A DNA stretch of 64,000 nucleotides from an uncultured bacterium. GTDB lineage: Bacteria > Patescibacteriota > JAHJAL01. How positions within the stretch are numbered: the first letter of the stretch is position 1; each line of letters begins with the position of its first letter. This document shows, piece after piece, positions 35,688-61,120 of the stretch. The stretch covers positions 2,457 to 66,456 of the forward strand of contig CALKWM010000013.1 of NCBI GenBank assembly GCA_938004065.1, in the 5' to 3' direction. The notes beneath the pieces are model-generated. The model searched no databases. It was not told where the DNA came from and saw only the letters and a program-made list of their open reading frames with translations. Position numbers and translations under genes: made by a program.

Positions 35688-37457
35688 TTACTCTTTGGTG
35701 GCGGACCAAACTTCGGGCATGGTGGTGTGTCCTTGGATAACTTTCATCAGGCCATCTTGTTCCATGGTAGTCATACCATCTTCGAGAGCGGCTTTTTGTA
35801 GCGAGGAAAGGGAGAGTGATCTTAAAACCACTTCTTCAATGCGAGGAGTAACGACAAATGTTTCGATGATAGCGATTCGGCCGGAAAATCCGGTATTGTT
35901 GCATTTGATGCATCCTTTGCCTCTTTTTAATATTTTTGGGACTTCATTTATACCTCGACGTTTGGTGTCGGGGATTTTTTGAAAAATATTGACCATTTCC
36001 TGGTGTATGAGCGAGTCTATCTCGTATTCTTCCTGGCAGTTTTGACATATTCTACGAACAAGTCTTTGAGCGATGATCAGATTGATTGAGCTTATGATGA
36101 GGTATGGTTTGACACCCATTTCAATCAAACGGGGAATGGCACCGGCGGCGTTGTTGGTGTGGATAGTGGATAGTACCAAATGACCGGTCAGTGATGCTTG
36201 AGTGGCGATTTCGGCGGTTTCCGGATCACGGATTTCACCGACTAGAACGATATCCGGATCTTGACGAAGGATAGAGCGTAAGCCGGAGGCGAATCCATAG
36301 TTTTTTTCGTGATGAACTTGGCTTTGGGAGATGCCACTAATTCGATACTCGACCGGATCTTCGAGGGTGATGATTTTATCTTCGGGATTGTTTAATTCTT
36401 GTAAAATTGCGTAGAGAGTGGTGGTTTTACCGGAACCGGTAGGACCGGTGTTTAGTATCAGACCATTGGGTTTGTGGATAGCGTTGTTGATAACCAGATC
36501 GATATCTTCGGGAAAACCAAGTTCTTTTAGACTGACGAATTTTTCTTTTTGTTCCAACATACGCATTACGGTGGATTCACCGTAGATGGTGGGCAGGATA
36601 GAAACACGAATGTCAAATTTGGAGTTGGCGGCGGTAATTGAGAAACGTCCGTCTTGCGGGATATCAGTTATATCCAGTTTTAATTTGGATAGATATTTCA
36701 AGCGAGACATCAGAGGTTTGAAGGCCACTTTGTCCAGATAGGCAATATCTTGCAGTACACCATCCATACGATAGCGCAAACGAATTTGGGTTTCGGTGGG
36801 TTCGATATGGATGTCCGATGCGCCGATTTTGACCGCACCGGTCATAACAACATCAACCAGTTCGGTGGTTGAGACGGTTTTGATTCGTTCTTTGAGTTCA
36901 GATAAACTTGATATTTGTTCTTCAAATTTGGATTCATCTTCCTCGGTAACCATGATTTTTTCGGTTTCTCGTTTATCGGGGGAAACCAATTCATAGAGCT
37001 TGAGGGCAAAATCAATACTCGATTCGGAAGTGATACTGACCAAAAACTCAAATCCGGAGGCGTCTTGAAGTTTTTTTAGAACCTCCATGGTGGCTTGGTT
37101 GTATTCGGTGCTGGCAATACGAATTTTTTTTCCGGCTTTGAGATAGGGAACAACACGGTATTTTTGAGCGATGTCTTTGGGAATTATTTCCATCACTTCC
37201 GGACTGATGGGGTAGTTGAGTAGATTGACATACGGCAAATTGGCTTGTTTGGCTTTTTGCTGGACAAATTTTTCCTCTTCTTCTTGTTGGAAAGATTTGA
37301 TGACACTCGATACTTTGGTGGCTTTACCTCTGCCCAAGTCTTTGGCTTTTTGCTGAGTGGACATGACTTGTTTTGATGCTTCGATTTCTTCGCGCATTTT
37401 TTGCTGAAGCCGTTGAGGAGTATCACCTTGGGTTATTTGTTGTTTGTCGTCAGGCAT
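35688..37457 (-). CDS. Type IV pilus assembly / type II secretion ATPase (PilB/GspE family).
   Basis: N-terminal GspE_N-like domain. Walker A LNTGPTGSGKTTTL, Asp and His boxes, and a tetracysteine motif CQNCQ...CIKC. The start was set at MPDDKQQ (37457) because the track start 37505 runs into the repeat array. Confidence 0.85.
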   Translation of the reverse strand: MPDDKQQITQGDTPQRLQQKMREEIEASKQVMSTQQKAKDLGRGKATKVSSVIKSFQQEEEEKFVQQKAKQANLPYVNLLNYPISPEVMEIIPKDIAQKYRVVPYLKAGKKIRIASTEYNQATMEVLKKLQDASGFEFLVSITSESSIDFALKLYELVSPDKRETEKIMVTEEDESKFEEQISSLSELKERIKTVSTTELVDVVMTGAVKIGASDIHIEPTETQIRLRYRMDGVLQDIAYLDKVAFKPLMSRLKYLSKLKLDITDIPQDGRFSITAANSKFDIRVSILPTIYGESTVMRMLEQKEKFVSLKELGFPEDIDLVINNAIHKPNGLILNTGPTGSGKTTTLYAILQELNNPEDKIITLEDPVEYRISGISQSQVHHEKNYGFASGLRSILRQDPDIVLVGEIRDPETAEIATQASLTGHLVLSTIHTNNAAGAIPRLIEMGVKPYLIISSINLIIAQRLVRRICQNCQEEYEIDSLIHQEMVNIFQKIPDTKRRGINEVPKILKRGKGCIKCNNTGFSGRIAIIETFVVTPRIEEVVLRSLSLSSLQKAALEDGMTTMEQDGLMKVIQGHTTMPEVWSATKE

Positions 37458-37493
37458 GGTGAGAAGTAAGAAATAAGAAGTAAGAAGTAAGAA

Positions 37494-37531
37494 GTATGCG
37501 CCCAAGGCGCACCAGATGACTGGAAAAGTAA
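37494..37531 (+). promoter_or_regulatory. 38-bp double-dyad element, copy 3, flanked on both sides by AAGTAAG repeats, 36 nt upstream of the PilB-like ATG.
   Basis: Exact 38-mer GTATGCGCCCAAGGCGCACCAGATGACTGGAAAAGTAA. Confidence 0.6.
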
Positions 37532-37716: not shown

Positions 37717-38322
37717 TCAAACCATGATTTGTATGGAAGCGGCTAAGGGTGTGTTGTTTTCTAAATCGTTGTCTGAGTAATCCGAGTAAATAAAGACCAT
37801 GTTTCCCACCAGGAGAGTTTCATATGTAATTTGTTGATTGGTGGGGTTTAGGTAAACGGTTTTTTTGTCGATTAAAAAATCAAATGAATTGTCTTGGGAA
37901 AGAATAGTTATTTTTTCCGGTGAAAGATGACTAATAATACCATTTATTGAATTTGGGGGCATAAGGACGACGTGGTAATTTTGATTTTCTGTTAACAAGA
38001 CTATGTGATCGGAGGTTTTTAAATCAGAAATAGTGATTGCTGTGTTGTCGTGAGTGTATGGATCGAATTTATCAATGTTGGTTATGCGATTGGTGTCGAT
38101 AGAGATGGATTCAAATTGGTTGGTGTAGAGCGATATTTGTTCGGGTTCAAGGGAAAAAATTTTGGCAAATGCTTTGTAGTCATTGGGGAGGGTATTGTTG
38201 GCTATTAATTTGGGATAGAAATAGATATTATGATAACTAACGATGAGGATGATAGTGGCAATGATGCAGGAAATAAAACAAAGGATTGTAAGACGTATTA
38301 TTTGTGATTCTTTTGAAAGCAT
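37717..38322 (-). CDS. Hypothetical membrane-anchored protein.
   Basis: The start MLSKESQ (38322) is followed by a TM segment LTILCFISCIIATIILIV. It lies 11 nt downstream of the giant gene's stop. Confidence 0.4.
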   Translation of the reverse strand: MLSKESQIIRLTILCFISCIIATIILIVSYHNIYFYPKLIANNTLPNDYKAFAKIFSLEPEQISLYTNQFESISIDTNRITNIDKFDPYTHDNTAITISDLKTSDHIVLLTENQNYHVVLMPPNSINGIISHLSPEKITILSQDNSFDFLIDKKTVYLNPTNQQITYETLLVGNMVFIYSDYSDNDLENNTPLAASIQIMV

Positions 38323-38333
38323 GGAAAAAATTT

Positions 38334-41300
38334 TTAGAAGCCAATATGGACAGCATCTTCGCAGTTTGTTAGAAAAGGGTTTTGTCGGTCTTCGCATTTT
38401 TTGACAAAGATATTCAATACATCAAATCGATCTTCATACCAAACAAAATCGAATTTTTCTTTGGATTTGGGGGCGATTTTATCTTGGATAGTGGAGGCGA
38501 AATCGGAAAATATCTGTAGTGGGTAGTAATTTTTGATATATTCCCTAGGATTGTTCGTCATTTCCGGGTTGTTGATCGGGAATCCGTTTTCGTCAGCTGC
38601 TTCAACAATTTCTCCATTTTCGTTTTCCATGATGATATTGTATTTTAGGTGAGCTGTTTTATTGCGATCAAATGTTAAAACCATGTCCAGGAAGTGGATG
38701 ATGTTGTCTTGGGCGATTTTTTTCTTGCATTTGGTAAACACAAAGCCGGCAACGGGGTTATTGACCCAACTGCCAACGAAGCCAATGCCGATATTGGCTA
38801 CATTGAATCCGAGACCCATGTCAAAACTGGCCCCCAGATTTGTTAGTATTGATACATCTGCCTTCAGGAATTCTTTGATTAGATATTGGCTAGCAAACTG
38901 CATGATGGCTTCAGTTGGAAATTCACCATTTAGAATGCTCATGATAGAATTACTCATCAAACCACCCAGGGGACCATCAAGTTTGGAAAGCAGGTGTTTA
39001 TCTAAAAATTTCATCGACGTTTGTTTGATAAATCCGTCAATGTCGCCGTTCATCAGATTTTGGATACCGCCAATATCGAAATAATCGCCAAGTTCGCTTG
39101 ATTCAAGCCATTCGGTTATTTTGTCAGCGACTTTGGGTGAGGATAGGATGGAGTTGGCGATAGCTTGGGGATCGCCGCTAAGGGCGGCGTTGACGATACC
39201 GCCATAATCGCTCATGAAGCTTTGGAATTCTTCTTTGCCGATAGCATCTTGGAAAAAGTTGGCGGTCATGATGGTGCTAACCGCTTTTTGGGGGGTGATA
39301 TCGCCACTGGCGACGAGCCCATAGATACTGGAAATATCACCGAGTGTGCCGGGATCGATGTCTTGCAGTACGTTTTTTTGAATAAAATCCGATTGCAATA
39401 ATTTGGGAATATTTTTTGGGTCAGGTGGTACTCCGAGGGTGTTGGTAAGCTCCTGAACTACGGCTAGTTTTTCCAAGCCCGATTCGGATGTTATCTTGTT
39501 GGCCATGATTTCCATAACTGTGTCGGATGCTTTTTGAGGTGAAAAGTTTTGAACCAAATCTAGTAGTTGCTCCGGTCCGGTACCGATGGCGTCTCTGATT
39601 TCGTTGTTGATGTTAAATTTATCTTGAATGAGAGGAATATCTTCCAGGAGAGCAAAATAGTTGCCACTTTCGATGTCGGAATAGATTTTTAATGGATCAA
39701 CCCCATTGATAGCGATATTGCCATCCGGTCCGATGTTCCAGGTGGAATTATTTGAAAGATTATCAAAAACTCCGTTGTCTTTCAAAAAGCCGGTCATGGA
39801 TTTGATGCCAGTTTCGATGTCGCCGGTTTGCCATGATTTGACGATACCCATGGCGTTAGTCAGTTGAGTTAATTTGTTTTCCAATATTGCCTGGTCGCTA
39901 ACATCGGTAAACATACTGGCGATGTCAATGCCGGTCATACTGGCGGCGATAACTGTAACACCGAGGTTGGATAGATTTTCTTTGGCTTGATTGTCGCTTT
40001 TGCCGATACTATTTAAAGTGTTATAGATTGTTCCACTGCCTCCTAAAAAGGCGTTGTTGTCAAAGGTGGCATAAGTTGAGTCAGGAAGTTGGTAGCTGAA
40101 TTGATGTTTTTCGAGGAATGCGGTTTTTAGCGGGTCTTGGGAGAGAATGTTTTGAATTTGAGAGAAGCCGGAAGTGGTATTGGGTAGAGTCGGAGTGATG
40201 CGATTGTAAATATTTGATGGAAGATTTTGATTTATACCCGGAATTTGTTGGTTGTTGGAAGTAATCGGAGTGATAACAATTGGTTTTTCTTGGGCGTATT
40301 TGATGATATTGGTGGTGGTGCTAAGTAATTTGAAATTACCAGTTTGACTATGATAGTTGTTGTTGCCGCGGATTCCCGGGAGGGCGATTTCGGCGAGATC
40401 TACTTTGGGATAAGCGTAGTAAATCTCTCCGGGTTCAAAGTATTCGGAGTAAGTAGCGTTGATGGGGGATGGAAATGAAGTGCCACCGTAAGAGCTAAAA
40501 TAATCAGGATTTGTAGTGTTTTGGTCAGGAGAAAGTAGAGCGTTGTTTTTTTGTTCAAAGGTGGTAGAGTGGACAATTTCCAGTGAGTTTAAATCAACGT
40601 TCAAGGAACGTAGTACTCCTTGAAATTGAGTATCTGATGCGCCATTTTGGCCGGGTTTGGTGGTGGTATCAATGTAATCAATTTGTGATAACTCATCTTT
40701 TTTTACTCTTTCGGAAAAGGAAATTTTGATTGGCGCTACCAGATAACTGATTTCATTTTTGGCTTTGGCCGAGTCGCTGTTGGGATCGGAGATGGATTGG
40801 TCAATGGTGGATACTATGCGGTCATGAAACTGAGTGATGGGTTCGGAATTACCAAATTTTGTGGAATAATCTTGAGAAAGTTTTTGTAGTTCGGGGGAAT
40901 ATGCGTATGGATTGTAACCATAGCCATATGGTGAATAGTTGTTGAATGCGGGATTGGTGGATTCCGGTAAGTTATTGACAATTTGAATGTAGTCTTGCAG
41001 GTAGGCCAGTTTTTCAATGTCGGTTTTATTTAAATCGATGCCAAATTTATCCAGTTTGATGGAATTGGAAATGGCGGCCATCATGAGTTGCCCAGCTTGA
41101 GCGTTGTCGCCCGAGTAGGCCGGATTGAGACCGTAGTCAACCAGTAATTCCAGAGACTCGGGGGTGAAGTTGATGTTTTTTAAAGCGGCTTGCTCAAAAT
41201 CGATTTTGTTAAGCAGAGTGTTTTTGAAAGTAACAAATGGCATTGAGGTGGGGTTGTCAACGAAGTCTTTGATGAATTGCGCGTCTTCAGTATTGATAGC

Positions 41301-44012
41301 GAATATTTTTGACAAATCCTCGGTTTCCATGAGTTGCATGGCGGAGTTTAGCGAGAAGTCTTGGCCTTGTGAAATTGCGGTGGTTAACGCTTGATTGATG
41401 CGTTGATTGTCAGTTACGTCAGACAATAGACTGCTGGTTAAAGACATGGCGGTGTTTTTGGGGTTTTTGATATCAAAGATGAAATTTGTCGGCAGGCCTT
41501 CAATTTTGGCCAAGCCATGTTGTCCCAATTTATTGGCGATGCCGATAAACCCTTCACCGGAAAAACTATCCAAATCAAGGATCCCGTCCGGCCATCCCAA
41601 TACATTTGAATTCAGTTCTTTTAGGCCCAAATTGGCGAAAGCCAGCCCCATGGCTTCGGGGTTGTCGCCATTTTGGATAGCGATGTTCATGGCTTCCTGC
41701 AGTTTGGGAGGTAGGTTGAGATTGGGGGTAAAATTTAAAGCTGATAGGGCGGCGTCTTTGAAATCACCGGACATCATAGCGGAGATGATGGGTGTGAAAG
41801 AGCCAAATTCCAGTCCAAGTTGCTCGTCGAGGTAGTTGCCGGTAATGGATGTGATTAGTGCTTCGGGGTTGGGATTTAACCAATTGACGCTAGAAGAAAA
41901 ACCATCGGGTAGTCCCAGTTTGCCAAATACTTTTTCATCAAGCCACTGGTTGCCCATTTCGCTCATGAAGTTTTCAAATCCACCTTGGGCCAGTTTGGCG
42001 ACATCGAAATTTTTAAAACCGGAATTAAATAACTGTTCGATGGCTCCTTGGGCAAGACCTTTGAGCATATTGGTAATACTGAAACCATTTTCCGGATCAA
42101 ATGGTAGCGCTTGGTCGAGAGCGGCACCGGCCAGATCGGAGGCGATTGAACCGTAGTCTTCGTTTTGCCATTTGACTTTCACTCCCATGGTATTGGGATT
42201 GGCGGAGTCGAGTATGGGAGGACAACATGGTTGGCAAAGAGTTCCCCAGAAGATAGGTGCGGTGCAAAGGAGCATGCATATCGCTGAATTGCGATAGATA
42301 TTCCAAAAAGGAACATTGTTTTCGGTAGCGGCACCGAGACTGTATTGAGATGCGGCCATGGGACCGGCAACTGTCATCAGGTAGGCGCTAATTAATGAAT
42401 CTACAACAGCGGTGATGGATTTGCAAGAGACTATATCGCCACAGGCGGAACAGTCAGTGGATTCGTTGTATAATCCGATTTCGGAGATATCAACCGCTTT
42501 GAGGTCATAGTGAGGATTGACAACTTCCAATTCGTCTTCACCTATTTCATCGGAAGCGTATGGTGCGTTTAAACCCAGCCAGATTTTGAGGTGGGCTCGG
42601 TCTTTGTAGGGAACACCGAGATTGTCAATGTTGCCGGTCATGACATCAAAAACAAAATAAGTGGCACTGACTATTCCGCAGAGGTTGGCGGGGTTATCAC
42701 ATTTTTCCGGACTGTTTTCGATGTTTTTGCCACAGGCGGTTTTGATGGCCCCCGGGGTAGTGGCGTCTTGGATGACTTTGTCAGCTAGGTACCTTTCGTA
42801 AGTTTCGCCGTTCATTTCCATAGTTTGGAAGACGTGGTAAAGCAGGTAGTAGATTCTTTCGTCAACCTGAATGCCTTGTTTGTAGTAGCTGTTGAATTCG
42901 GCGATGGTTTGGGGCAACAATACTTTTACTTCCGCCGGGTTTTCAAATTCAAGTGGGGGTGGAAAAAATTCTTGGGTAGGCGGGTTGCCACTTTTTGGTT
43001 CAGGAATGTTATTGATTTCATTTTGAAGTTGTTGAAATTCCGGGCTGTTGGTATCCGGATTTTCAAAATATGGAGCTATTGAATCGTTGTTGATCGTTTG
43101 AGGATTGTTTTCGGGAGGATTTAGTTCGGGCGCGGGTGGAGTGCTGAGAGAGGCATAGGTTTTGGTTATGCCCAGATATTGGGCGAGTTTATTGTTGCCA
43201 TTGGTCGAAGTGGTAGATGGTTCGGTAGTAAAATTGTTTTGCAAAATTTGTCGTGAAGTATCGGTATTGAAAGCGATATTTATGTCGGGGTTATCAACTC
43301 GAGCGTCGTTGTTTTGCTGGGGATCTGAACCTTTGAGAGCGTTGGGGCCGGGAGGGCAGGCGATTAGTCCTTCGCCGATAGCTTTGGAAATAAATTCTTT
43401 GTGGGAAAGCATATCACCATTTATTTCGGCGCCAATTTCGGCTTTGATCATTAGGCATTCGAATACTTGGTTGAAATTGAAAAGCTCGGCCAGATTTTGT
43501 GATTGCTCCAAATAGTGGTCGTAGATATGTTGAGCCCAGGCGTCTTCATTGCTATTGTAATCATTTTTACTGAGATTTTTGATCTCATCAACTTTGGCTT
43601 TGGCTTTGGTAAAAATTTCGTTATTTAAATCGATAACTCTTTGAGTTTCGATCAAGGTATCAACTTTTTCGATTTCATCGTAAACGACAGTATTTAAGTT
43701 TTCTTCCAAAGTTTGGATTTCTTTGGCCCAGTCGCGGAATTTGTCGGTAATGTTGGGAGTTTCGATTTCGTCTTGGATGATATCCAGACTGTTGATGATG
43801 GTGTCGTTGGCAGAGAATTGATCGATAGTAGTGTTCTGATTGATTTCTTCCAAAAAAGGGTTAAGGTTAGGATCAATGTCATGGGAATTTGGTACCGGCG
43901 GGGTTGCGTGAACCGGTGTAAATTTCAGTTGGGGATTGGCATATGGCGAAATGGCGGCGATGAAGCAGACGAGAATCAGTTTGATGATGATTTTTTTGTT
44001 GATTGGATTCAT
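38334..44012 (-). CDS. Giant secreted/surface protein of 1892 aa with a signal peptide, Pro/Asn-rich low-complexity stretches and Cys-rich regions; function unknown.
   Basis: Uninterrupted 5.7-kb ORF. The N-terminus MNPINKKIIIKLILVCFIAAISPYA is signal-like. No catalytic motif was recognised. Confidence 0.6.
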   Translation of the reverse strand: MNPINKKIIIKLILVCFIAAISPYANPQLKFTPVHATPPVPNSHDIDPNLNPFLEEINQNTTIDQFSANDTIINSLDIIQDEIETPNITDKFRDWAKEIQTLEENLNTVVYDEIEKVDTLIETQRVIDLNNEIFTKAKAKVDEIKNLSKNDYNSNEDAWAQHIYDHYLEQSQNLAELFNFNQVFECLMIKAEIGAEINGDMLSHKEFISKAIGEGLIACPPGPNALKGSDPQQNNDARVDNPDINIAFNTDTSRQILQNNFTTEPSTTSTNGNNKLAQYLGITKTYASLSTPPAPELNPPENNPQTINNDSIAPYFENPDTNSPEFQQLQNEINNIPEPKSGNPPTQEFFPPPLEFENPAEVKVLLPQTIAEFNSYYKQGIQVDERIYYLLYHVFQTMEMNGETYERYLADKVIQDATTPGAIKTACGKNIENSPEKCDNPANLCGIVSATYFVFDVMTGNIDNLGVPYKDRAHLKIWLGLNAPYASDEIGEDELEVVNPHYDLKAVDISEIGLYNESTDCSACGDIVSCKSITAVVDSLISAYLMTVAGPMAASQYSLGAATENNVPFWNIYRNSAICMLLCTAPIFWGTLCQPCCPPILDSANPNTMGVKVKWQNEDYGSIASDLAGAALDQALPFDPENGFSITNMLKGLAQGAIEQLFNSGFKNFDVAKLAQGGFENFMSEMGNQWLDEKVFGKLGLPDGFSSSVNWLNPNPEALITSITGNYLDEQLGLEFGSFTPIISAMMSGDFKDAALSALNFTPNLNLPPKLQEAMNIAIQNGDNPEAMGLAFANLGLKELNSNVLGWPDGILDLDSFSGEGFIGIANKLGQHGLAKIEGLPTNFIFDIKNPKNTAMSLTSSLLSDVTDNQRINQALTTAISQGQDFSLNSAMQLMETEDLSKIFAINTEDAQFIKDFVDNPTSMPFVTFKNTLLNKIDFEQAALKNINFTPESLELLVDYGLNPAYSGDNAQAGQLMMAAISNSIKLDKFGIDLNKTDIEKLAYLQDYIQIVNNLPESTNPAFNNYSPYGYGYNPYAYSPELQKLSQDYSTKFGNSEPITQFHDRIVSTIDQSISDPNSDSAKAKNEISYLVAPIKISFSERVKKDELSQIDYIDTTTKPGQNGASDTQFQGVLRSLNVDLNSLEIVHSTTFEQKNNALLSPDQNTTNPDYFSSYGGTSFPSPINATYSEYFEPGEIYYAYPKVDLAEIALPGIRGNNNYHSQTGNFKLLSTTTNIIKYAQEKPIVITPITSNNQQIPGINQNLPSNIYNRITPTLPNTTSGFSQIQNILSQDPLKTAFLEKHQFSYQLPDSTYATFDNNAFLGGSGTIYNTLNSIGKSDNQAKENLSNLGVTVIAASMTGIDIASMFTDVSDQAILENKLTQLTNAMGIVKSWQTGDIETGIKSMTGFLKDNGVFDNLSNNSTWNIGPDGNIAINGVDPLKIYSDIESGNYFALLEDIPLIQDKFNINNEIRDAIGTGPEQLLDLVQNFSPQKASDTVMEIMANKITSESGLEKLAVVQELTNTLGVPPDPKNIPKLLQSDFIQKNVLQDIDPGTLGDISSIYGLVASGDITPQKAVSTIMTANFFQDAIGKEEFQSFMSDYGGIVNAALSGDPQAIANSILSSPKVADKITEWLESSELGDYFDIGGIQNLMNGDIDGFIKQTSMKFLDKHLLSKLDGPLGGLMSNSIMSILNGEFPTEAIMQFASQYLIKEFLKADVSILTNLGASFDMGLGFNVANIGIGFVGSWVNNPVAGFVFTKCKKKIAQDNIIHFLDMVLTFDRNKTAHLKYNIIMENENGEIVEAADENGFPINNPEMTNNPREYIKNYYPLQIFSDFASTIQDKIAPKSKEKFDFVWYEDRFDVLNIFVKKCEDRQNPFLTNCEDAVHIGF

Positions 44013-44015: not shown

Positions 44016-44471
44016 TCAAGCATTGGTTTGTTCGATTAATGTTTTTTGATTGGTTTCGGGCAAGGAAGCGTACCAGTCAATTTGAATGTCGGAGATGAGA
44101 GTGCCTTTGGTTACAATCCAATTTAAGATTTCGTTTTTGGTTTCGGCGTATTGAGTATCGAGGTTTAAGTCGGTGGGGTTTTTGGCAGTCAGATAGATGT
44201 CGATTTTGGAGATGGACTGGCCACTAGGAAAAATAGAGTATTCGAAGTATTCATTGTCGGCAAAATACGGCAGGTCTTTTTGGATTGAGTATTGGGGGTA
44301 CTCGGTGTCGATAATTTGGTTGAATGTGATTTGACTGTTGGCAAAATAATTGTCCGGCAAGATATATAGTTGCTCGACTTTTGTTTGTTGTCGATAGATA
44401 AAAACGATGATAATTGCGATAGGGATGGCAATGGCTAAATATTTAATGATTTTTTGTTTTAATATTGGCAT
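44016..44471 (-). CDS. Small N-terminally membrane-anchored protein.
   Basis: 151 aa with a TM segment YLAIAIPIAIIIVFIY followed by a soluble domain. The gene is tightly packed between its neighbours. Confidence 0.4.
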   Translation of the reverse strand: MPILKQKIIKYLAIAIPIAIIIVFIYRQQTKVEQLYILPDNYFANSQITFNQIIDTEYPQYSIQKDLPYFADNEYFEYSIFPSGQSISKIDIYLTAKNPTDLNLDTQYAETKNEILNWIVTKGTLISDIQIDWYASLPETNQKTLIEQTNA

Positions 44472-44476: not shown

Positions 44477-45877
44477 TTATTTTTTATTGGCGTAATATAA
44501 TATTGTGTTGGAATAACCTCTATTAGCGTCACCAAACTCGGCTAGTTCCAAATCGGACCAGGAGATTTTGGTACGATTGCGATTGCCCGGATCGTTGAGG
44601 ATTACTCCTTCTTGATCATACCCGACGGCAACGACAAAATGGCTGGGACCACCGGATGACAAATTGGGACCGCCACCAAGGACTACCGGTATTCCTTTGT
44701 CCAAATAAGTGGTAATGGTCTTTTGTTGTTGACTGAAATCAAAAACGAATTGATTTTCTTCAACGATAATATCCGGGTATTCGCTGTGGATGTTTTGGGC
44801 AGTAACTGTGATACCGGTTAAACTGCATACAGATGTTGGGTCAACGTCTTTGCCCATAAATTTTAGTACCATAGCAAGAGAGGTGCAGTAACAGCCGGCT
44901 TTTTGGATATCGGCACTGTAATCACCTTGATTAAAATACCACTCACGCGGTTTGTCCAGTGATTTGGCACCGGAGGGTGTGTCGTATGTTGGTGTTACTG
45001 CTTCGGCTTGGGTGGAAATATCGGTTGGGTAGTGTTTGTTGCCACTGCCCATGCCACCCATAGCTAGAAAAAGGACAACAATTAGAAAAATTATGATGAC
45101 GATAATGATGATGATCAAAATAACTACTACTACCGGCCAACCAACCGCGGCAGCGCCTCCGGCGGCAGCGGCAGTTCCACCAGCGGCAGCGGCAGCTCCG
45201 CCCGCTGCAGCGGCACCTCCACCAGCGGCGGCCACGGTTCCACCGGCAGCAGCTGTACCGGCACCGGCTGCTCCCGCTCCCGCGGCTCCGGCACCGGCTC
45301 CGGTTGCACCAGCAGTGCCAGCACCAGTTGCTCCCGTGCCTGCTCCGGCACCGGCTGACGGACCACCCGGTGGCATTTTGCCGGTAGGTGTTTTTGGGGA
45401 TTGCGTGCCCGGCTGACCGGGTTTTTGACCGGAACCGGGTTTGTCCGGTTGCTTGTTTTTGTCGGCATCTTCGCGATTAATCTTGCGGTTTTTGTCCGGT
45501 TGGGATTTGTCCTGGTCGGTGTCTTGTTTGTCTTTATCTTTGTCCTGTTTTTTGTCTTTATCCTTGTCTTGATCTTTTTCTTTGTCCTTGTCTTTATCCT
45601 GATCCTGATCTTTATCTTTATCTTTATCCTTTTCTTTTTCTTTGTCTTGATCCTGATCTTTTTCTTTGTCAGGTTCCTGGTCGGGTTTTTTTTCCGGAGA
45701 TGGTTGTTCCGGACTACTGGTACTTTGTGGTGAAGTGTCGGGTTGGCGGTCAAGATTGATTGATTGCGGTTCTGATCCACCGGCTGATGACGATTGTCCG
45801 CCACCTGGTGTGGAGGTACCGGATATATTTATCTCAATGTCTTTTTTTTCGATATCTTCGCGTTTGAATTTGGCCAT
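44477..45877 (-). CDS. Membrane-anchored papain-like cysteine peptidase (Peptidase_C39-like domain) with a disordered KD-repeat and Gly/Ala/Thr-rich N-terminal region.
   Basis: The N-terminus contains (KDKD/QDKD) repeats, then a GAGAGTGATGAG stretch, then a single TM VVVILIIIIIVIIIFLIVVLFLA. The C-terminal domain carries a catalytic-Cys motif AGCYCTSLAMVL and a His motif PSHFVVAVGYD. Confidence 0.6.
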   Translation of the reverse strand: MAKFKREDIEKKDIEINISGTSTPGGGQSSSAGGSEPQSINLDRQPDTSPQSTSSPEQPSPEKKPDQEPDKEKDQDQDKEKEKDKDKDKDQDQDKDKDKEKDQDKDKDKKQDKDKDKQDTDQDKSQPDKNRKINREDADKNKQPDKPGSGQKPGQPGTQSPKTPTGKMPPGGPSAGAGAGTGATGAGTAGATGAGAGAAGAGAAGAGTAAAGGTVAAAGGGAAAAGGAAAAAGGTAAAAGGAAAVGWPVVVVILIIIIIVIIIFLIVVLFLAMGGMGSGNKHYPTDISTQAEAVTPTYDTPSGAKSLDKPREWYFNQGDYSADIQKAGCYCTSLAMVLKFMGKDVDPTSVCSLTGITVTAQNIHSEYPDIIVEENQFVFDFSQQQKTITTYLDKGIPVVLGGGPNLSSGGPSHFVVAVGYDQEGVILNDPGNRNRTKISWSDLELAEFGDANRGYSNTILYYANKK

Positions 45878-48315: not shown

Positions 48316-49863
48316 TTAGTGATCTTTTTTTAGTGTATATAAGTAGTTTTCCATATCAGTGAAGTAGAGGGTAAATGATGATGGGTCGAAAGCTAGAGAA
48401 TCAATACTGTTTGCACCTTGTTGCTTTTGATCGAAATTGGTGGAGAATATTGTATCATTTTGAATGCTATCTGATTTGCGTGATGTATCAAAATAATAAA
48501 ATTGGTCGGTACTGTTGGGATAATCGCCTGGTGTAATTGTAGGGAGATATGTTGGGATAGCTAAGATAAATTCTGTATTAGATATCCAAGTTAGTTTTTT
48601 GATAAATGATTTGATCAAAAGTGGTCTGAAATATATATCATTGTTGTCATTTTTTCGAATAAACTCAATTGAAGGCAATCCTTTGTTATCTATTATTTCG
48701 GCGAGTAGTGTTTCATTATCAGGAGACCAGCTAATATCTGTAATGGTTCTGATTGCTGGAATTTCTTCAATCAAGTTGTTTTCAAAATGAAAAATAAATG
48801 CAGTATGATCTTGCGAAATAATCGCAAGTTTGGTGTTGTCGGTTGTAATTTTTATTTCTGGATTAAGAATTTTTGATGGTAGCTTATAAATATTTTGCCA
48901 TTGACTGCCATCGGGATTGGCTATCGTTAAACTATTGTGGTTTTCTCCTTCTGTGTAAACAGGAGCCCATCCTCTGCCACCACTAGGCATATCTGGATCG
49001 GGAATTGATTTTTCATCGATTGTTTGGTTTTGGAATATATAATATATTTTTTCAGAGTCTTTTGACCAGGCAATTTTGTCTGAAGGAATTGTTGAGTTAA
49101 TTATTTTTTGGGTAACTATGTCGAGGTAATATTTTTTTTCTAAAGTTTCATCGTTTTCGGTGCCGTTAAAGATAACTTTATTAAAATTTGGCGACCATAA
49201 AATATCTTTGATATTTTTGAATTCATTTGTTTCAAAAATTATTGTTTCTTGGTTGTTTTCAATTTTTTTGAATTGAAATTTATTTGAAAATGAACTATTT
49301 GCTTCGTCGAAGATGGTAATCTGTTCGATATAATGGGGTGTATTATTTATAGAATTATTTTGTAGCCCAATAACAATATTTTGGGTTTTTTCTTTGATTG
49401 AAGGAATTAGGTTGGCATCTATATTGGTAGTTTGCCAGAAATAAACAATGAAATCCTTTTGAAAATCAAGGTAGTTTTCTTTTTTAATTACTAAACTATA
49501 GTTGCCTGGTGGTAAAGATAAAAAGGTGCTTTGAGTTTGACTATAAAATTCAATTTTTGAATCTAAAAATGGACAATTAGAATAACCTTCTTGGTGAACA
49601 ATATCTGCGGTATTGCATATATAAGCTTTGGTTGATGACTGGTTGGAATGAATTAATAATTTTCCTTTATTTATTAAAGGCCAAGTAATTAATATTCCAA
49701 TAACTAGAATAATAATTCCTGCAGAAATATAAAGATAATTTTTCTTGAAAAATTCGATAATATTGGATTTTTTTTCTTTAGTATTAGAAGAGATATTGTC
49801 TGGTTGTAGGTTTAGTTTTTTCATTATTTTTATAAATGGATTAGCATTTGTAATAGAGGACAA
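48316..49863 (-). CDS. N-terminally membrane-anchored PD40/TolB-like beta-propeller protein.
   Basis: TM segment YISAGIIILVIGILITWPL, then repeated WSP(N/D)..K..F motifs (ILWSPNFNKVIF, ISWSPDNETLLA, KIAWSKDSEKIYY). Confidence 0.5.
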   Translation of the reverse strand: MSSITNANPFIKIMKKLNLQPDNISSNTKEKKSNIIEFFKKNYLYISAGIIILVIGILITWPLINKGKLLIHSNQSSTKAYICNTADIVHQEGYSNCPFLDSKIEFYSQTQSTFLSLPPGNYSLVIKKENYLDFQKDFIVYFWQTTNIDANLIPSIKEKTQNIVIGLQNNSINNTPHYIEQITIFDEANSSFSNKFQFKKIENNQETIIFETNEFKNIKDILWSPNFNKVIFNGTENDETLEKKYYLDIVTQKIINSTIPSDKIAWSKDSEKIYYIFQNQTIDEKSIPDPDMPSGGRGWAPVYTEGENHNSLTIANPDGSQWQNIYKLPSKILNPEIKITTDNTKLAIISQDHTAFIFHFENNLIEEIPAIRTITDISWSPDNETLLAEIIDNKGLPSIEFIRKNDNNDIYFRPLLIKSFIKKLTWISNTEFILAIPTYLPTITPGDYPNSTDQFYYFDTSRKSDSIQNDTIFSTNFDQKQQGANSIDSLAFDPSSFTLYFTDMENYLYTLKKDH

Positions 49864-52800
49864 AATCCGACCATCCTTCTCCTTCCTCCCAGTTTGCTTT
49901 TTTGGTTATGCTATTTATGGTAGGATCAAAAAATTTATCGATGGGTGTAGGTTCATTCGGTCCGTTGTAACCTAGTTGTTGATAACAACCCGAGTTATTA
50001 ATTATTAGATTTTTTACCCCGTCTATTTCTTGGTAACTTTTGATCGTGACATAATGACCGGAAAAACCGCCAATACCAATATTATAATAATAGTATGTAC
50101 CAACTACTACTGGTATGCCTTGTTTGGCAAGGTTAATTATTTCCTGTTTGGTGGCACCTCGATGAATACAGCTTTGTTTGTCTTGTGGGATGTGTTTTTT
50201 CATTTGTTTTTCAAGATAATCCATGTTGGTAGATTGCGATAGTGGTCTGACGCATTTTGATGAATCATTACAAGTGTAGTCATCATAAAATGATCTTTCT
50301 CCGAAACTAGTGGCAAAACCTTGTGATTGCAATAACATAAGCAAGGCAGTAGGTCCGCAACCATCATCAGTGGTTTGACAGTAGTGAGGCATTTCTCCTG
50401 GTGTAACTACAGTAGGTGTAGTGCTGGGTGTGCTACATTGTTCGGAAGTAGTTTGTAAATAGGGGTATGGGTCTTGGAAATCGGGTAAATCTATACTACA
50501 TCCATCTGGATTTGCATTTAAAGGTCGCTCAAAGTGCATCATACAACATGGACCAATATCGTCTACTGTTGCTATTTGTTGTCCGGCTCTTATTTTTGTG
50601 CCTTGAGTGATGAAAGGTTCAGTGTTTACTTCACCATAACCGTTAAATGAACCATCGGCGTCGTTTTTAACCATAATGTAGTCTTTGCCACAATAGAAAT
50701 TTTCTTTTACATATTCTACTGTTCCGGATTCAATAGCTATTACTGGCCAACTAGCACCGGTTTGACCGCAATTGTTAGGTCCAGGACCAGCTTCTCCAAC
50801 AATAAGATCAAAACCTGCGTGTGCTCTAGAGACAGGACAATCGCCTTGAGGCCGAGATGCTTTGAAGTGTCTTGGTCCATTTGGAGCTCCTTTGTTTCCG
50901 TACTCGAGAGTAGCTTCTTTGCCATCGGCGCCAATAATTGGCCAGCATCTGCCACCGGGAGGAACATCGGAAATTGTTTGCGTTTGTTCTTGACATTTTT
51001 TAATACAGTCATCAATTTCTTGTTGGGTGTATCCCGGAAAAGATCCACCATTATTACCAGTTGAGCCGGTTGTGCCACCTTGGCCACCGCAGATTTCGGA
51101 GTCGGAACCAATAATATTGAATTGTTTTTTGGCGGTAATAACTCGATTGTATGATTCTTCAATCCTATTTTTTAGTGCTTCATTTTCTCTGGCTTTGTTA
51201 GCGATGTTAGTTATTACTTCGTTTATAGTTCCGGATGTTGCAGAAACAAGCATAATGATATCATTTCCGGCATTGATAGCTTTTTCGACTCTATCTGTGG
51301 TGGAATCGTTGGTTGATAGTGATGCGCCAACAGCGTTCAAGTCGTCGGTGATTATCAGTCCGTTAAAACCATTTCGGGCTTTGTCAACAATTTCTTTGGT
51401 ATAGGCAGCGTTTTCGGAAGAAATTTTGGTATAGGTAATACTATTCATCATGATAGCTACTTTATTTCCATATTTTTGTTTTAAATCATCGAATGGTTTT
51501 ATATATTGATAAGGATCTTCACTAGATGTGCCTTTTTCATAATCGGTGTGAGCACTTGCCGGATAGCCAGGAAAATGTTTAAGTGTGGGAATAACACTAG
51601 CGAGAATCAAGCCATCAATGTAATTTGATGCTTCAGTAGTAATATCACCATCAAAAGTACGACCGTCAGCACTAATTGGACTGTCGCTTAGGTTTGGGTC
51701 TACTACTGGTGCAAGATTCATATTGATACCGAAAGATTTCATATCCTTACCGCATGATGTCATAGATGTTTTTGGATCAGACATATTGGCGGCTGATGGC
51801 AAGTTGGAGCAATTGTTTGCGGTGCTGGTATATTTAAGTCTGTTGACTACTCCACCTTCGATGTCGCTGGCGATAATTGGTTTTATTTTCAATGTGTTGG
51901 TAATTGTTTTTATTTTAGCAAGACTATTATCTTCACTGCCTCCCATCATTATGATACTACCAATTTTCAGTTTTTCTAATTCATCAGTAGTAAAATTGGC
52001 TTCGTTGACCATAAGTATTTGGCCAATTTTTTCTTCCAAGCTTAGTTCTTTACATTTCTGGCTGGATCCTTCGATGTAAAATAGTTTCCCTGGATCTTGT
52101 GAGTGGACGATATTGGTCATATATTTGGTAAAATCAGTAATTTCATATTTAGCCATTTCACCACTTGAGCCGTTATTTTTTACACCAGTATATACAGTAC
52201 CGTGATCTTCGTAGGGATCGTTGACAATAAAGGAAGTAATTTGACCAGAGGAATCTTTGGTATAACCGATAATTAGAACTATGTGGCCGTAATTGCCATC
52301 GGTATTTGATGTGCGCATGAATCCGGTAAATGCGACCATGGGAGTACCTTGGTCAATCAGGCCGGTTATTTTAGGAATGCTATTGGTGTCATATTTGAAT
52401 TCCGTTACAGTTGATCCTGTTTCGGTTGTAGCAAAACTTTGAATAGTACCTGATCCATTTCTTGTAGCGTCTTTACCGTTTAATGTTTTGTTTTGTTCAA
52501 TAGTACTCCAGACCGGTTCGATGGTGGTGTAGTAGGTGCCGGGGTCAATATCTGTACTATTGGCATAATTGACAGCCATAACTGTTGAAACGAATCCGCA
52601 ACCGGCACTTTCAATGGTGTCGACACTGTCTAGTTTGACATTGGGATATTGTTTTTGATTATAATGTTTGATTCCGGAAATATAAGTTTTGTCGTCATTA
52701 GATGTGGGACCGGAGGAGATGTCTTGGCATTGCATGTTTTCAAAAATTGCTTTTGCATAATTAACTCTTTTGGTAAATGGTGTTAGGTCGTCTGAGCATT

Positions 52801-53485: not shown

Positions 53486-53514
53486 GGTAAGAAATAAGAA
53501 GTAAGAAATAAGAA

Positions 53515-53593
53515 GTATGCGCCCAAGGCGCACCAGATGACTGGAAAAGTAATAAGTATGCGCCCAAGGCGCACCAGATGACTGGAAAAGTAA
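53515..53593 (+). promoter_or_regulatory. Two tandem copies of the 38-bp double-dyad element (53515-53552 and 53556-53593), 29 nt upstream of the lysin ATG, preceded by AAATAAG/AAGTAAG repeats.
   Basis: GTATGCGCCCAAGGCGCACCAGATGACTGGAAAAGTAA x2, separated by TAA. Confidence 0.6.
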
Positions 53594-56562: not shown

Positions 56563-56700
56563 AAAATCTAAAATGACTAAATGATTATAATTGCAGAATT
56601 GAAATATAGTAATAATTGTCTAAATTTTGATAACCAATATTTCCTTGGAAAAAAAATATGAAATCTTCTCGTTAAATTGGATATTGATATTTGATAATTG

Positions 56701-57375: not shown

Positions 57376-57382
57376 GGTTTGT

Positions 57383-60756: not shown

Positions 60757-60766
60757 TTTTTTCTCC

Positions 60767-61095
60767 TTAAAAATAATATATTTTAATAAATAATAAGTAA
60801 TAAGCAATATGCAATAAGCAATATGCAAGAAGCAAGAAGTAATATGCAATATGCAAGAAACAAGAAGCAAGAAGCAAGAAGCAAGAAGTAAGAAAGTATC
60901 AAGGATCAATATTCAATATCCAATATCCAATAAGCAATATGCAAGAAACAATAAGCAAGAGACAAGAAGCAAGAAGCAAGAAGCAAGAAAGTATCAGGGG
61001 TCAATATCCAATATCCAATATCCAAGAAGCAATATGCAATAAGCAAGAAACAAGAAGTATGCGTCCAAGGTGCACCAGATGACTGGAGAAGCAAG
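60767..61095. repeat. Heptamer-periodic SSR spacer between pilin paralogs 2 and 3, containing a diverged copy of the 38-bp element at 61057-61094.
   Basis: Units AATAAGC, AATATGC, AAGAAGC (x3 runs), ATATCCA and AAGAAAC. The element variant is GTATGCGTCCAAGGTGCACCAGATGACTGGAGAAGCAA. Confidence 0.85.
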
Positions 61096-61120
61096 AAAGT
61101 ATTAATATTATTGCATGTTG

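What the first reader, a model, noticed from the sequence alone, without database searches (positions are those of the whole stretch)
38334..44012. 1892-aa secreted giant of unknown function between the PilB-type ATPase and the T4SS-like genes
This is a 5.7-kb uninterrupted ORF with a signal peptide, Pro/Asn-rich low-complexity linkers (NPPENNPQ..., FFPPPLEFENP) and several Cys-rich segments, but no recognisable enzymatic motif. Its size and composition are those of an adhesin or a fibre/tip component. It sits with two membrane-anchored small proteins (37717-38322, 44016-44471) in one minus-strand block, which fits a role at the distal end of the pilus/T4SS-like apparatus.
Basis: inference. 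Interest (0 to 1): 0.5.

Follow-up and report, generated by a model that had tools for sequence, protein, structure and literature searches.

The report
Orphan giant protein in a Patescibacteria T4SS cluster
This is a real, strongly conserved 1892-residue exported protein with no known relatives or fold, found only in a small group of ultrasmall (CPR/Patescibacteria) bacteria, where it always lies inside their type IV secretion gene cluster; it is probably a membrane-anchored part of the machinery that contacts the host cell, not a repeat-built adhesin fibre.

Summary
The ORF (38334-44012, minus strand, 1892 aa) is real. The identical protein occurs in independent assemblies, full-length homologues exist down to 27% identity, and non-synonymous change is strongly suppressed along its whole length. 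An exhaustive profile search of 1.84 billion representative proteins found about 13 relatives, all giants from Patescibacteria. Pfam, NCBIfam, PHROGs and PDB sequence searches found nothing.

In every informative locus the gene has the same position: VirB2-like pilins, VirB6, PrgI/VirB3, TrsD, VirB4, cell-wall hydrolase, a ~500-aa beta-propeller-like protein, then the giant, then a lone GspE/PilB-type ATPase. In some relatives the hydrolase/500-aa/giant trio is duplicated in tandem.

All members have one N-terminal transmembrane segment; distant ones carry a 120-240-aa cytoplasmic tail before it. There are no internal repeats. AlphaFold models residues 693-1690 confidently as short alpha-helical bundles plus one alpha/beta insert, with no structural relative in PDB. 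Invariant Cys/His/Asp/Glu residues cluster in an N-terminal domain (346-625) and a C-terminal domain (1745-1892).

My reading is an anchored, extracellular accessory subunit of the T4SS host-contact module, possibly metal-dependent. The adhesin-fibre/pilus-tip idea is only partly supported. The biochemical function remains unresolved.

The parts
38334..44012 (-). Giant ORF, 1892 aa plus stop
   Evidence: Searches confirm the ORF. The exact protein is found in independent assemblies, full-length homologues exist, and the gene is under purifying selection.
43932..44006 (-). Residues 3-27: the single N-terminal hydrophobic segment (signal peptide or signal anchor)
   Evidence: It is the only Kyte-Doolittle peak in every family member. 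In P0006-P0009 it follows a 120-240-aa charged, Gly/Ala-rich tail.
43413..43775 (-). Residues ~80-200: conserved N-proximal region (sequence suggests helical; not modelled)
   Evidence: F180, E185 and L187 are invariant. Conservation profile.
42978..43412 (-). Residues 201-345: variable Pro/Asn/Ser/Thr-rich linker
   Evidence: Lowest conservation and 28-57% gaps; composition.
42138..42977 (-). Residues 346-625: N-domain, the most conserved block, rich in Cys/His/Asp/Glu
   Evidence: Invariant residues include E361, Q415, C427, C438, C445, N464, R472, H474, D488, E489, H501, D508, Y515, N516, E517, D520, C521, C524, C530 and W615. The profile finds only giants among 1.84e9 proteins. No Pfam or PDB hit.
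42480..42518 (-). Residues 499-511, 'NPHYDLKAVDISE': an invariant H-x6-D motif resembling the LAS/Hedgehog zinc site
   Evidence: hhalign aligns 13 columns to Shh 'SLHYEGRAVDITT', but at only 1% probability. This is a lead, not a match.
42222..42422 (-). Residues 531-597: clade-specific hydrophobic, Cys-containing insertion inside the N-domain
   Evidence: Absent from P0006-P0009. It reaches TM-like hydrophobicity in P0005. Two or three helices were predicted at pLDDT 55-65.
38922..42137 (-). Residues 626-1697: non-repetitive, mainly alpha-helical body
40047..40739 (-). Residues ~1092-1322: alpha/beta insert in the body, flanked by variable loops
   Evidence: Strands are predicted at model residues 403-626. 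This stretch has the highest dN/dS, 0.29 over residues 1168-1312, and gapped variable loops.
38337..38780 (-). Residues 1745-1892: C-domain ending '...CEDAVHIGF'
   Evidence: Invariant residues C1762, D1769, N1770, H1773, D1776, K1849, C1873, N1878, C1884 and H1889. AlphaFold confidence below 50. A profile search found only fragments of giants.
44016..44471 (-). 151-aa single-TM protein, 3 nt upstream of the giant
   Evidence: Translation. Homologous-size genes sit at the same place in L016, L003/L004 and L014 but are absent in the distant loci.
37717..38322 (-). 201-aa single-TM protein, 11 nt downstream of the giant
   Evidence: Translation; the gene is called in L001. It is present only in the closest relatives.
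44477..45877 (-). 466-aa protein: Lys/Asp-rich tail, Gly/Ala-rich stretch, TM helix, C39-like peptidase domain
   Evidence: Pfam PF13529, E 2e-13; sequence.
48316..49863 (-). ~500-aa TM-anchored PEGA/beta-propeller-like protein, a conserved partner of the giant
   Evidence: Homologous to the ~497-aa gene immediately upstream of the giant in the distant loci (E 2e-11; alignment A9).
49841..53533 (-). Multi-domain cell-wall hydrolase in the VirB1-like role
   Evidence: Pfam domains Phage_lysozyme2, Peptidase_C39_2, Glyco_hydro_3 and Peptidase_M23.
53901..55751 (-). VirB4-type ATPase
   Evidence: Pfam P-loop_TraG, E 8e-32.
55870..59821 (-). TraC-like/TrsD, PrgI (VirB3-like) and TrbL/VirB6-like genes
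   Evidence: The same families are recorded in the related loci.
60391..63894 (-). Array of three VirB2-like T4SS pilin genes
   Evidence: Pfam T4SS_pilin, E 2e-13 to 7e-9.
35688..37505 (-). GspE/PilB-type ATPase (MshEN + T2SSE), downstream of the giant or of the last giant copy in all six informative loci, with no PilC/PilM/pilin genes nearby
   Evidence: GspE 490 bits, PilB 480 bits, VirB11 51 bits. Adjacency. No T4P genes follow it in L007.

Best explanation
The gene encodes a Sec-exported protein held in the producer's membrane by its single N-terminal helix. It is a lineage-specific accessory subunit of the Patescibacteria monoderm-type (MPF-FATA-like) type IV secretion apparatus.

Proposed anatomy: an anchor; a short conserved N-proximal region; a variable Pro/Asn-rich spacer that could cross the wall; a Cys/His/Asp-rich N-domain; a compact body of about 1000 residues built of alpha-helical bundles with one fast-evolving alpha/beta insert; and a small Cys/His C-domain.

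Proposed mechanism: it works as one module with the adjacent peptidoglycan hydrolase and the ~500-aa propeller-like protein. Together they open and hold the contact between the epibiont's secretion channel or VirB2-like pilus base and the host envelope. The helical body would act as a scaffold. The two terminal conserved domains would form a metal-dependent binding or hydrolytic site, and the variable insert would contribute host specificity.

Shown: the gene is real and constrained; the single-TM topology; synteny and module duplication; the all-alpha non-repeat body; the absence of known relatives.

Inferred: physical association with the T4SS, the scaffold role, a metal or catalytic site, and host specificity.
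For: - Synteny. The giant sits between the hydrolase/~500-aa pair and a GspE/PilB-type ATPase, downstream of VirB4, TrsD, PrgI and VirB6 (VirB2-like pilins lie upstream in the window). This holds in the window and in loci whose giants share only 27-33% identity with it.
- Module duplication. The hydrolase/~497-aa/giant trio is duplicated in tandem in L005/L006 (second copy confirmed as a full-length paralogue), and L008 also carries a second giant upstream.
- Operon structure. Gaps of 3-11 nt to the flanking genes indicate co-translation.
- Topology. All members have a single TM segment, and distant ones have a cytoplasmic tail.
- Selection. The whole length is under purifying selection. dN/dS is lowest in residues 583-882 and highest in the alpha/beta insert.
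- Conserved sites. Invariant His/Asp/Glu/Arg/Cys residues are concentrated in the two terminal domains.
- Structure. A confident all-alpha model without repeats.
- Literature. The Patescibacteria T4SS is MPF-FATA-like, lacks a relaxase, is essential for epibiotic growth in S. epibionticum, and no PrgB-type adhesin has been found in the phylum. A contact component is therefore missing (PMC12102498, PMC10633639, PMC12857230).
Against: - There is no direct evidence of physical association with T4SS proteins.
- The family is restricted to a handful of genomes (4 of 185,579 GTDB species representatives), so it cannot be a general T4SS requirement.
- AlphaFold failed on both terminal domains (pLDDT below 50), so the proposed metal or active site is unverified.
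- No profile method links either domain to any enzyme family.
- Gene neighbourhood alone could also reflect co-regulated but mechanistically separate envelope functions.
Confidence: 0.4

Rival explanations
1. It is a passive surface adhesin or fibre: a long extracellular protein whose only job is to bind the host surface, functionally replacing PrgB-type adhesins of Gram-positive conjugation systems.
For: It is extracellular and large, and it sits in the T4SS cluster. No PrgB-like adhesin is known in Patescibacteria (PMC12102498). It has a variable alpha/beta insert with the highest dN/dS. Tandem duplication with divergence is typical of host-recognition proteins.
Against: There are no repeats, and the body is helical-bundle rather than Ig-like or beta-helix. 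There is no LPXTG sorting signal. The most conserved parts are two domains packed with invariant His/Asp/Glu/Cys, which is unusual for a pure adhesin. A membrane anchor with a cytoplasmic tail in relatives excludes a pilus-tip location.
Confidence: 0.2
2. It is mainly an enzyme. The N-domain, possibly completed by the C-terminal '[DE]-x-x-H' motif, would be a divergent LAS-type (Hedgehog/VanY/M15-like) zinc peptidase or another metallohydrolase that cuts host or own cell-wall peptides, adding a second lytic activity to the VirB1-like hydrolase.
For: H501-x6-D508 is invariant in the context 'HYDxKAVDIS', which matches Shh 'HYEGRAVDIT'. The invariant C-terminal '[ED]-x-x-H1889' resembles the third-ligand motif of VanX/VanY/T5 endolysin (from my own knowledge of those families). 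R472 and H474 are invariant upstream. The gene is adjacent to peptidoglycan hydrolases in all loci.
Against: The match is only 13 columns at 1% hhalign probability, and there is nothing to VanX. No Pfam clan member hit even at E<=10, and there is no PDB sequence hit. The third ligand would lie about 1380 residues away. The chimeric N+C-domain model was unusable (pLDDT 36).
Confidence: 0.13
3. It is a bitopic, energy-coupled envelope-spanning scaffold, VirB10-like in logic, or a partner of the adjacent lone GspE/PilB-type ATPase. The cytoplasmic tail, or the tail of the 466-aa neighbour, would dock the ATPase, and ATP hydrolysis would drive a conformational change or extrusion of the extracellular body.
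For: The giant, or the last giant copy, is followed by the ATPase in all six informative loci. No PilC, PilM or T4P pilins are nearby. Relatives have the tail/TM/Pro-rich-spacer layout. In the Agrobacterium virB operon, virB10 directly precedes virB11, which belongs to the same ATPase superfamily (established knowledge).
Against: There is no TrbI/VirB10 domain. The window protein itself has almost no cytoplasmic tail. The ATPase is GspE/PilB-like, not VirB11-like, and could serve a T4P system encoded elsewhere in the genome. A separate copy of the upstream repeat element precedes the ATPase gene, which suggests its own transcription unit.
Confidence: 0.12
4. It is a secreted toxin or effector delivered to the host, with the downstream 201-aa protein acting as immunity.
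For: It is large, sits in a secretion cluster, has a conserved small C-terminal domain with Cys/His/Asp, and has a small membrane protein immediately downstream.
Against: It has an N-terminal Sec-type anchor rather than a T4SS C-terminal signal. The C-domain is among the most conserved parts rather than polymorphic. The 201-aa gene is missing in L014 and in the distant loci. PADLOC was not run and no toxin family hit was found.
Confidence: 0.05
5. It is an envelope structural protein of the producer (a wall- or S-layer-associated scaffold) that merely shares a neighbourhood with the T4SS genes.
For: It is acidic, abundant in Asn/Ser/Thr, exported, and strongly constrained along its whole length.
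Against: Its position inside the cluster is conserved across 27-70% identity. It is duplicated together with the hydrolase/~497-aa pair. Its invariant Cys-rich domains are atypical of S-layer proteins.
Confidence: 0.08

Closest known systems
Patescibacteria MPF-FATA-like T4SS gene cluster (S. epibionticum SEML1_0006-0019; Quinonero-Coronel et al. 2025, PMC12102498; Wang et al. 2023, PMC10633639)
   Same: The surrounding cluster has the described components: a VirB2-like pilin array, VirB6, PrgI/VirB3, TrsD/TraC-like, VirB4, and large peptidase/lysozyme proteins directly downstream of virB4. No relaxase or T4CP gene lies nearby.
   Different: The passages I read from those papers do not describe a ~1900-aa component or a GspE/PilB-type ATPase as part of the cluster. 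This giant family is limited to about 13 sequences.
Surface adhesins of Gram-positive conjugative T4SSs (PrgB/aggregation substance; also the PrgA helical stalk protein) of pCF10
   Same: They are large exported proteins encoded in a monoderm T4SS cluster and thought to mediate cell-cell contact. PrgA is also largely alpha-helical (own knowledge).
   Different: There is no sequence or fold similarity. The giant has an N-terminal membrane anchor rather than a C-terminal LPXTG. It has no Ig-like or polymer-adhesin domains and no repeats.
TraN of F-like plasmids (Cys-rich mating-pair stabilisation protein)
   Same: It is an extracytoplasmic T4SS accessory protein with many conserved cysteines that engages the partner cell's envelope (own knowledge). 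This is a functional analogy only.
   Different: TraN is a ~600-aa outer-membrane protein of diderms. No homology was detected, and the giant is three times larger and membrane-anchored in a monoderm.
LAS zinc peptidases (Hedgehog N-domain, VanX/VanY, peptidase M15)
   Same: An invariant H-x6-D within 'HYDxKAVDI', and a terminal '[DE]-x-x-H' motif.
   Different: There is no significant profile or fold match. The motifs are about 1380 residues apart. The fold could not be tested.
VirB10 (bitopic T4SS scaffold encoded next to VirB11)
   Same: Relatives share the cytoplasmic tail/TM/Pro-rich-spacer/large extracytoplasmic part layout, and the gene lies directly upstream of an ATPase of the VirB11/PilB superfamily.
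   Different: There is no TrbI/VirB10 beta-barrel domain. The organism is a monoderm. The ATPase is GspE/PilB-type with an MshEN domain. The giant is five times larger.

Membership tests
Patescibacteria MPF-FATA-like T4SS cluster (locus membership) | VirB4 with adjacent TrsD/TraC-like, PrgI/VirB3, VirB6/TrbL, VirB2-like pilin array and wall hydrolase, all co-oriented | tested here: met
   Pfam hits. The same order is found in L005, L007, L014 and L016.
Patescibacteria MPF-FATA-like T4SS cluster (locus membership) | The giant is a conserved syntenic member of that cluster | tested here: met
   It has the same position in 6 informative loci at 27-70% identity and is duplicated together with the hydrolase/~497-aa pair.
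Gram-positive T4SS surface adhesins (PrgB type) | C-terminal LPXTG wall-sorting signal | tested here: not met
   The C-terminus is '...CEDAVHIGF' with no LPXTG, hydrophobic or charged tail.
Gram-positive T4SS surface adhesins (PrgB type) | Recognisable adhesin/Ig-like domains | tested here: not met
   No Pfam or NCBIfam hit. The model is helical.
Repeat-built giant adhesins/fibres (Ig-like, beta-helix, RTX) | Tandem internal repeats | tested here: not met
   Profile self-comparison of 250-aa windows gives a best probability of 12.8%.
Repeat-built giant adhesins/fibres (Ig-like, beta-helix, RTX) | Predominantly beta structure | tested here: not met
   AlphaFold models residues 693-1690 as about 45 short helices, with strands only at about residues 1095-1318.
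LAS / peptidase M15 / Hedgehog-type zinc peptidase | H-x(3-6)-D zinc-ligand motif on a beta-strand | tested here: inconclusive
   Invariant H501-x6-D508 is present. The match to Shh covers only 13 columns at 1% probability. The strand prediction comes from a low-confidence model.
LAS / peptidase M15 / Hedgehog-type zinc peptidase | Third His ligand ([ED]-x-x-H or H-x-H) within the same ~150-aa domain | tested here: not met
   There is no invariant His between residues 509 and 1772. The only candidates are H1773 and H1889 in the C-domain.
LAS / peptidase M15 / Hedgehog-type zinc peptidase | Profile or fold similarity to clan members | tested here: not met
   No Pfam hit at E<=10, no PDB profile hit, and no match to VanX. 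The fold was untestable (pLDDT 36).
VirB10/TrbI | C-terminal TrbI beta-barrel domain | tested here: not met
   No Pfam hit.
Polymorphic toxin / T4SS effector | Variable C-terminal toxin domain with a cognate immunity gene kept downstream | tested here: not met
   The C-domain is among the most conserved regions. The downstream 201-aa gene is absent in L014, L005 and L007.
Phage tape-measure-like proteins | Significant fold or sequence similarity | tested here: not met
   BFVD best E 0.04 with TM below 0.1. No PHROG hit. No relative in IMG/VR.

The most novel reading that the evidence does not exclude
The giant, the lone GspE/PilB-type ATPase that follows it (directly or after one small gene) in every informative locus, and the hydrolase/propeller pair form a previously undescribed hybrid module grafted onto the Patescibacteria T4SS. 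In it, a pilus-type ATPase without a PilC platform would power or position a ~1900-residue, novel-fold extracellular protein at the host interface. Its two termini would join to form a split metal site (H501/D508 plus D1886/H1889) across a 1250-residue insertion.
Probability: 0.1. Interest if true: 0.75.

Novelty: new variant of a known kind. Interest (0 to 1): 0.45.

Why it matters
The T4SS of Patescibacteria is essential for epibiotic growth in the one species tested. Yet its substrate, its contact with the host and its missing parts (no adhesin, no VirB8, no coupling protein near the cluster) are unknown.

A conserved, strongly constrained, novel-fold giant that is hard-wired between the wall hydrolase and an ATPase is a concrete candidate for the host-contact or envelope-spanning element in at least one lineage. 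Its two terminal domains offer a short list of residues to mutate.

Its reach is limited. The family is confined to a few uncultivated genomes, so any insight may not generalise.

Tried and rejected
- Sequence searches on the giant. Pfam, NCBIfam and PHROGs found nothing on the full protein, on all family members, or (Pfam only) on isolated N- and C-domain cores at E<=10. The exception was a weak compositional hit to NF049989 (E 8e-4, residues 1672-1743), which I do not trust.
- PDB sequence searches with the protein and with N- and C-domain profiles found nothing.
- Searches for more relatives. The word-indexed search with the protein, the full alignment and the C-domain profile returned only giants or their fragments. 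The exhaustive HMM search with the N-domain found 10 representatives, all giants, with nothing between E 1e-62 and 1e-3.
- Split-domain idea. I built a chimeric N-domain + C-domain construct to test it. The second ran but gave pLDDT 36 and is uninformative.
- LAS peptidase idea. I kept it as a lead only.
- Internal repeats: none.
- Extending the family through its ~497-aa partner in metagenomes returned only a contig already in hand.
- Viral contigs hold no relative.
- Taxonomy below 'Patescibacteria group bacterium' could not be obtained.
- Lipoprotein was rejected: C16 is not conserved and there is no lipobox. A sortase substrate was rejected: 'LLPQT' is internal and not followed by Gly, TM or a charged tail.
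Full report
**Observation**

The minus-strand ORF 38334-44012 is uninterrupted and encodes 1892 aa. The largest overlapping alternative ORF is 142 aa.

The identical protein is encoded on four contigs from separate assemblies: an NCBI MAG (GCA_036848155.1), a Logan assembly of SRR6007447, and ENA. A search of 5.8 billion clustered proteins returned only nine hits, all 1748-1893 aa and all from Patescibacteria (two named 'Patescibacteria group bacterium'), at 27-100% identity and covering 65-100% of the query. They align end to end.

Against the 67%-identical orthologue, synonymous sites are saturated (pS 0.75) while pN is 0.19. Per-window dN/dS is 0.03-0.29 where it can be estimated. This is a real gene under purifying selection along its whole length.

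**How rare the family is**

A profile of the most conserved block (residues 335-625) was scored against 1.84 billion representative proteins. It found ten proteins, all giants of 1013 (partial) to 1874 aa, with nothing between E 1e-62 and 1e-3.

Only 4 of 185,579 GTDB species representatives carry the family, all labelled 'Patescibacteria group bacterium'. No relative exists in IMG/VR. The C-terminal block recovers only two fragments of giants on short contigs.

Pfam, NCBIfam, PHROGs and PDB sequence searches gave nothing credible. These covered the whole protein, every family member, and (Pfam only) isolated domain cores at E<=10.

**Genomic context**

The window holds a typical Patescibacteria T4SS cluster, all on the minus strand:
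- three VirB2-like pilins (60391-63894)
- TrbL/VirB6 (57383-59821)
- PrgI/VirB3 (56701-57375)
- TraC-like/TrsD (55870-56562)
- VirB4 (53901-55751)
- a 1230-aa hydrolase with Phage_lysozyme2, C39-like, GH3 and M23 domains (49841-53533)
- a ~500-aa TM-anchored PEGA/propeller-like protein (48316-49863)
- two plus-strand ORFs (46077-46961 and 47170-48237)
- a 466-aa TM protein with a C39-like domain (44477-45877)
- a 151-aa TM protein
- the giant
- a 201-aa TM protein
- a GspE/PilB-type ATPase with an MshEN domain (35688-37505)

The order VirB4, hydrolase, ~500-aa protein, giant, ATPase recurs in loci whose giants are 27-33% identical to the window's (L005/L006, L007, L014) and in the closer L003/L004 and L016. 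L014 shows the same set without the plus-strand interruption.

The ~497-aa gene upstream of the distant giants is homologous to window 48316-49863 (alignment A9). In L005/L006 the trio M23-hydrolase/~497-aa/giant occurs twice in tandem, and the second giant is a full-length paralogue (28% identity to the window protein, E 2e-147). L008 has a second giant upstream of the trio.

In all six informative loci the ATPase follows the giant or the last giant copy. No PilC, PilM or pilin genes lie beside it in the window or in L007.

**Anatomy of the protein**

Every member has exactly one strongly hydrophobic segment, at the N-terminus (P0005 has one additional peak at 606-630, inside its N-domain insertion). 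In P0006-P0009 it is preceded by 120-240 residues of acidic/Lys-rich and then Gly/Ala-rich sequence, so there it is a signal anchor with a cytoplasmic tail. In the window protein the segment is residues 3-27, and cleavage cannot be decided.

Conservation across 11 diverse members defines these parts:
- a moderately conserved N-proximal region (80-200)
- a variable Pro/Asn/Ser/Thr-rich spacer (201-345)
- the most conserved block, the N-domain (346-625)
- a long, evenly conserved body (626-1700) with variable loops at about 1001-1040, 1161-1200 and 1241-1280
- a conserved C-domain (1745-1892)

The N-domain's invariant residues are E361, Q415, C427, C438, C445, N464, R472, H474, D488, E489, H501, D508, Y515, N516, E517, D520, C521-x-x-C524, C530 and W615. 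In the window's clade the N-domain is interrupted by a hydrophobic, Cys-containing insertion (531-597).

The C-domain's invariant residues are C1762, D1769, N1770, H1773, D1776, K1849, C1873, N1878, C1884 and H1889. The protein ends four residues after H1889.

The protein is acidic (12.5% Asp+Glu against 6.5% Lys+Arg) and Asn-rich.

**Structure**

Profile self-comparison found no internal repeats (best probability 12.8%).

An AlphaFold2 model of residues 693-1892, built with a 12-sequence alignment, reached mean pLDDT 68 and pTM 0.63. Residues 693-1690 are mostly at 75-90. About 45 short helices form bundles, and an alpha/beta region lies at about 1095-1318. The low-confidence loops coincide with the variable, gapped regions.

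The C-domain stayed below pLDDT 50. A chimeric N-domain + C-domain construct, built to test whether the two conserved ends fold together, gave pLDDT 36 and is uninformative.

The good model has no relative in three searches:
- Foldseek against PDB: best E 0.06, TM about 0.1, generic solenoids.
- Foldseek against BFVD: best E 0.04, with tape-measure proteins at TM below 0.1.

AFDB50 could not be searched. Roughly half of the protein is therefore a confident, non-repetitive, all-alpha architecture without a known counterpart.

**A lead on biochemistry, not a finding**

'NPHYDLKAVDISE' (residues 499-511) resembles the zinc-ligand strand of the Hedgehog/LAS fold ('SLHYEGRAVDITT'). hhalign aligns exactly these 13 columns, but at 1% probability. 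VanX gives nothing.

The invariant C-terminal '[DE]-x-x-H' resembles the third-ligand motif of VanX/VanY-type enzymes. That comparison rests on my own knowledge of those families. Canonical LAS enzymes have all ligands within about 150 residues; here the motifs would be about 1380 residues apart.

Membership in LAS is therefore not supported. The observation only says that the two termini carry the kind of invariant His/Asp/Glu/Cys set expected of a metal or active site.

**Interpretation**

The evidence best fits an exported, membrane-anchored accessory subunit of a lineage-specific version of the Patescibacteria MPF-FATA-like T4SS. It would act as one module with the wall hydrolase and the propeller-like protein.

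The literature describes this T4SS as lacking a relaxase and a nearby coupling protein, carrying VirB2-like pilin arrays, being essential for epibiotic growth of S. epibionticum, and having no detectable PrgB-type adhesin or VirB8 (PMC12102498; PMC10633639; PMC12857230). A host-contact or wall-spanning element is thus an open slot.

I propose that the anchor and Pro/Asn spacer place a large helical scaffold outside the wall. The conserved terminal domains would bind or cut an envelope component. The fastest-evolving folded part, the alpha/beta insert with dN/dS 0.29, would contribute specificity. Tandem duplication of the whole trio in relatives fits adaptation to different hosts. All of these mechanistic steps are inferred. 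Only topology, synteny, constraint and fold class are shown.

**Rivals**

- Passive adhesin. This remains possible, but the lack of repeats, the helical body and the enzyme-like invariant residues weigh against it. A pilus-tip location is excluded by the anchor.
- Dedicated metallohydrolase. Possible, but unsupported by any profile.
- VirB10-like energy-coupled scaffold, or partner of the lone ATPase. This is suggested by the invariable giant-ATPase adjacency and by the tail/TM/Pro-rich layout in relatives. There is no VirB10 domain, however, and the ATPase is preceded by its own copy of a repeated upstream element.
- Toxin/effector. Unlikely, given the Sec-type anchor, the conserved rather than polymorphic C-domain, and the inconsistent downstream gene.
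- Unrelated envelope protein. Unlikely, given the synteny and co-duplication.

**Novelty and score**

The surrounding system is known. This component is not described in the papers I could read, has no homologues outside about 13 sequences, and has no known fold. I class it as a new variant of a known kind: a new accessory component of the Patescibacteria T4SS.

Interest is moderate (0.45). It gives a concrete, mutable candidate for the missing host-contact part. Against that, it is confined to a few uncultivated genomes, and its function could not be pinned down here.

Noticed in passing
window 7874-7890, 15834-15850, 37496-37512, 53517-53533, 53558-53574, 61059-61075 (all minus strand): A ~55-nt repeated element made of two adjacent hairpins (CCAG-TCAT-CTGG and GTGCGCC-TTG-GGCGCAT) followed by a (CTTCTTA)n tract. 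Its six copies lie upstream of RNase J, a tRNA, the PilB-like ATPase, the 1230-aa hydrolase (two tandem copies) and a VirB2-like pilin gene. Zero matches are expected by chance. It looks like a shared promoter-proximal or leader element and would split the T4SS cluster into separate transcription units.
   Followed up: partly
window 35688-37505 (-); L003, L005, L007, L014, L016: A GspE/PilB-type ATPase with an MshEN domain sits at the 3' end of the T4SS cluster in every informative locus, with no PilC, PilM or T4P pilin genes beside it. A pilus-type ATPase tied to a monoderm-type T4SS cluster is not mentioned in the T4SS surveys I read.
   Followed up: partly
L005/L006 6777-24700; L008 1075-15247: In distant relatives the trio M23 peptidase / ~497-aa propeller-like protein / giant is duplicated in tandem, with paralogues diverged to about 30% identity. 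This suggests the three genes evolve as one functional cassette.
   Followed up: partly
window 44477-45877 (-): The 466-aa C39-like protein begins with a Lys/Asp-rich low-complexity tail, then a long Gly/Ala-rich stretch, a very hydrophobic TM helix and 'GxGSGNK'. The distant giants (P0006-P0008) have the same N-terminal layout. This hints at shuffling of a common anchoring module between T4SS-associated exported proteins.
   Followed up: no
window 49841-53533 (-); L016 2884-5469; L014 3749-6454; L005 6777-8471: The VirB1-like hydrolase downstream of VirB4 changes its domain set between relatives: lysozyme+C39+GH3+M23 (1230 aa) in the window, lysozyme+C39+Amidase_2 in L016, lysozyme+C39+M23 in L014, and M23 only in L005. 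This is modular turnover of lytic domains at a fixed position.
   Followed up: no
window 42222-42422 (-), residues 531-597 of the giant: A clade-specific insertion of two or three hydrophobic helices with extra cysteines lies inside the most conserved domain. It is absent from distant homologues and reaches TM-like hydrophobicity in P0005. It could be a membrane-inserting loop; it remains unexplained.
   Followed up: no
whole window 1-64000: GC skew is positive in all 32 consecutive 2-kb windows (0.06-0.48) and AT skew is mostly negative. The plus strand therefore looks like a leading strand, yet about four fifths of the long ORFs, including the whole T4SS cluster, are on the minus strand.
   Followed up: no
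window 46077-46961 and 47170-48237 (+): Two plus-strand ORFs (294 and 355 aa) with no family hit interrupt the otherwise co-oriented cluster between the ~500-aa gene and the 466-aa gene. L016 and L003/L004 have one opposite-strand gene at this place and L014 has none.
   Followed up: no
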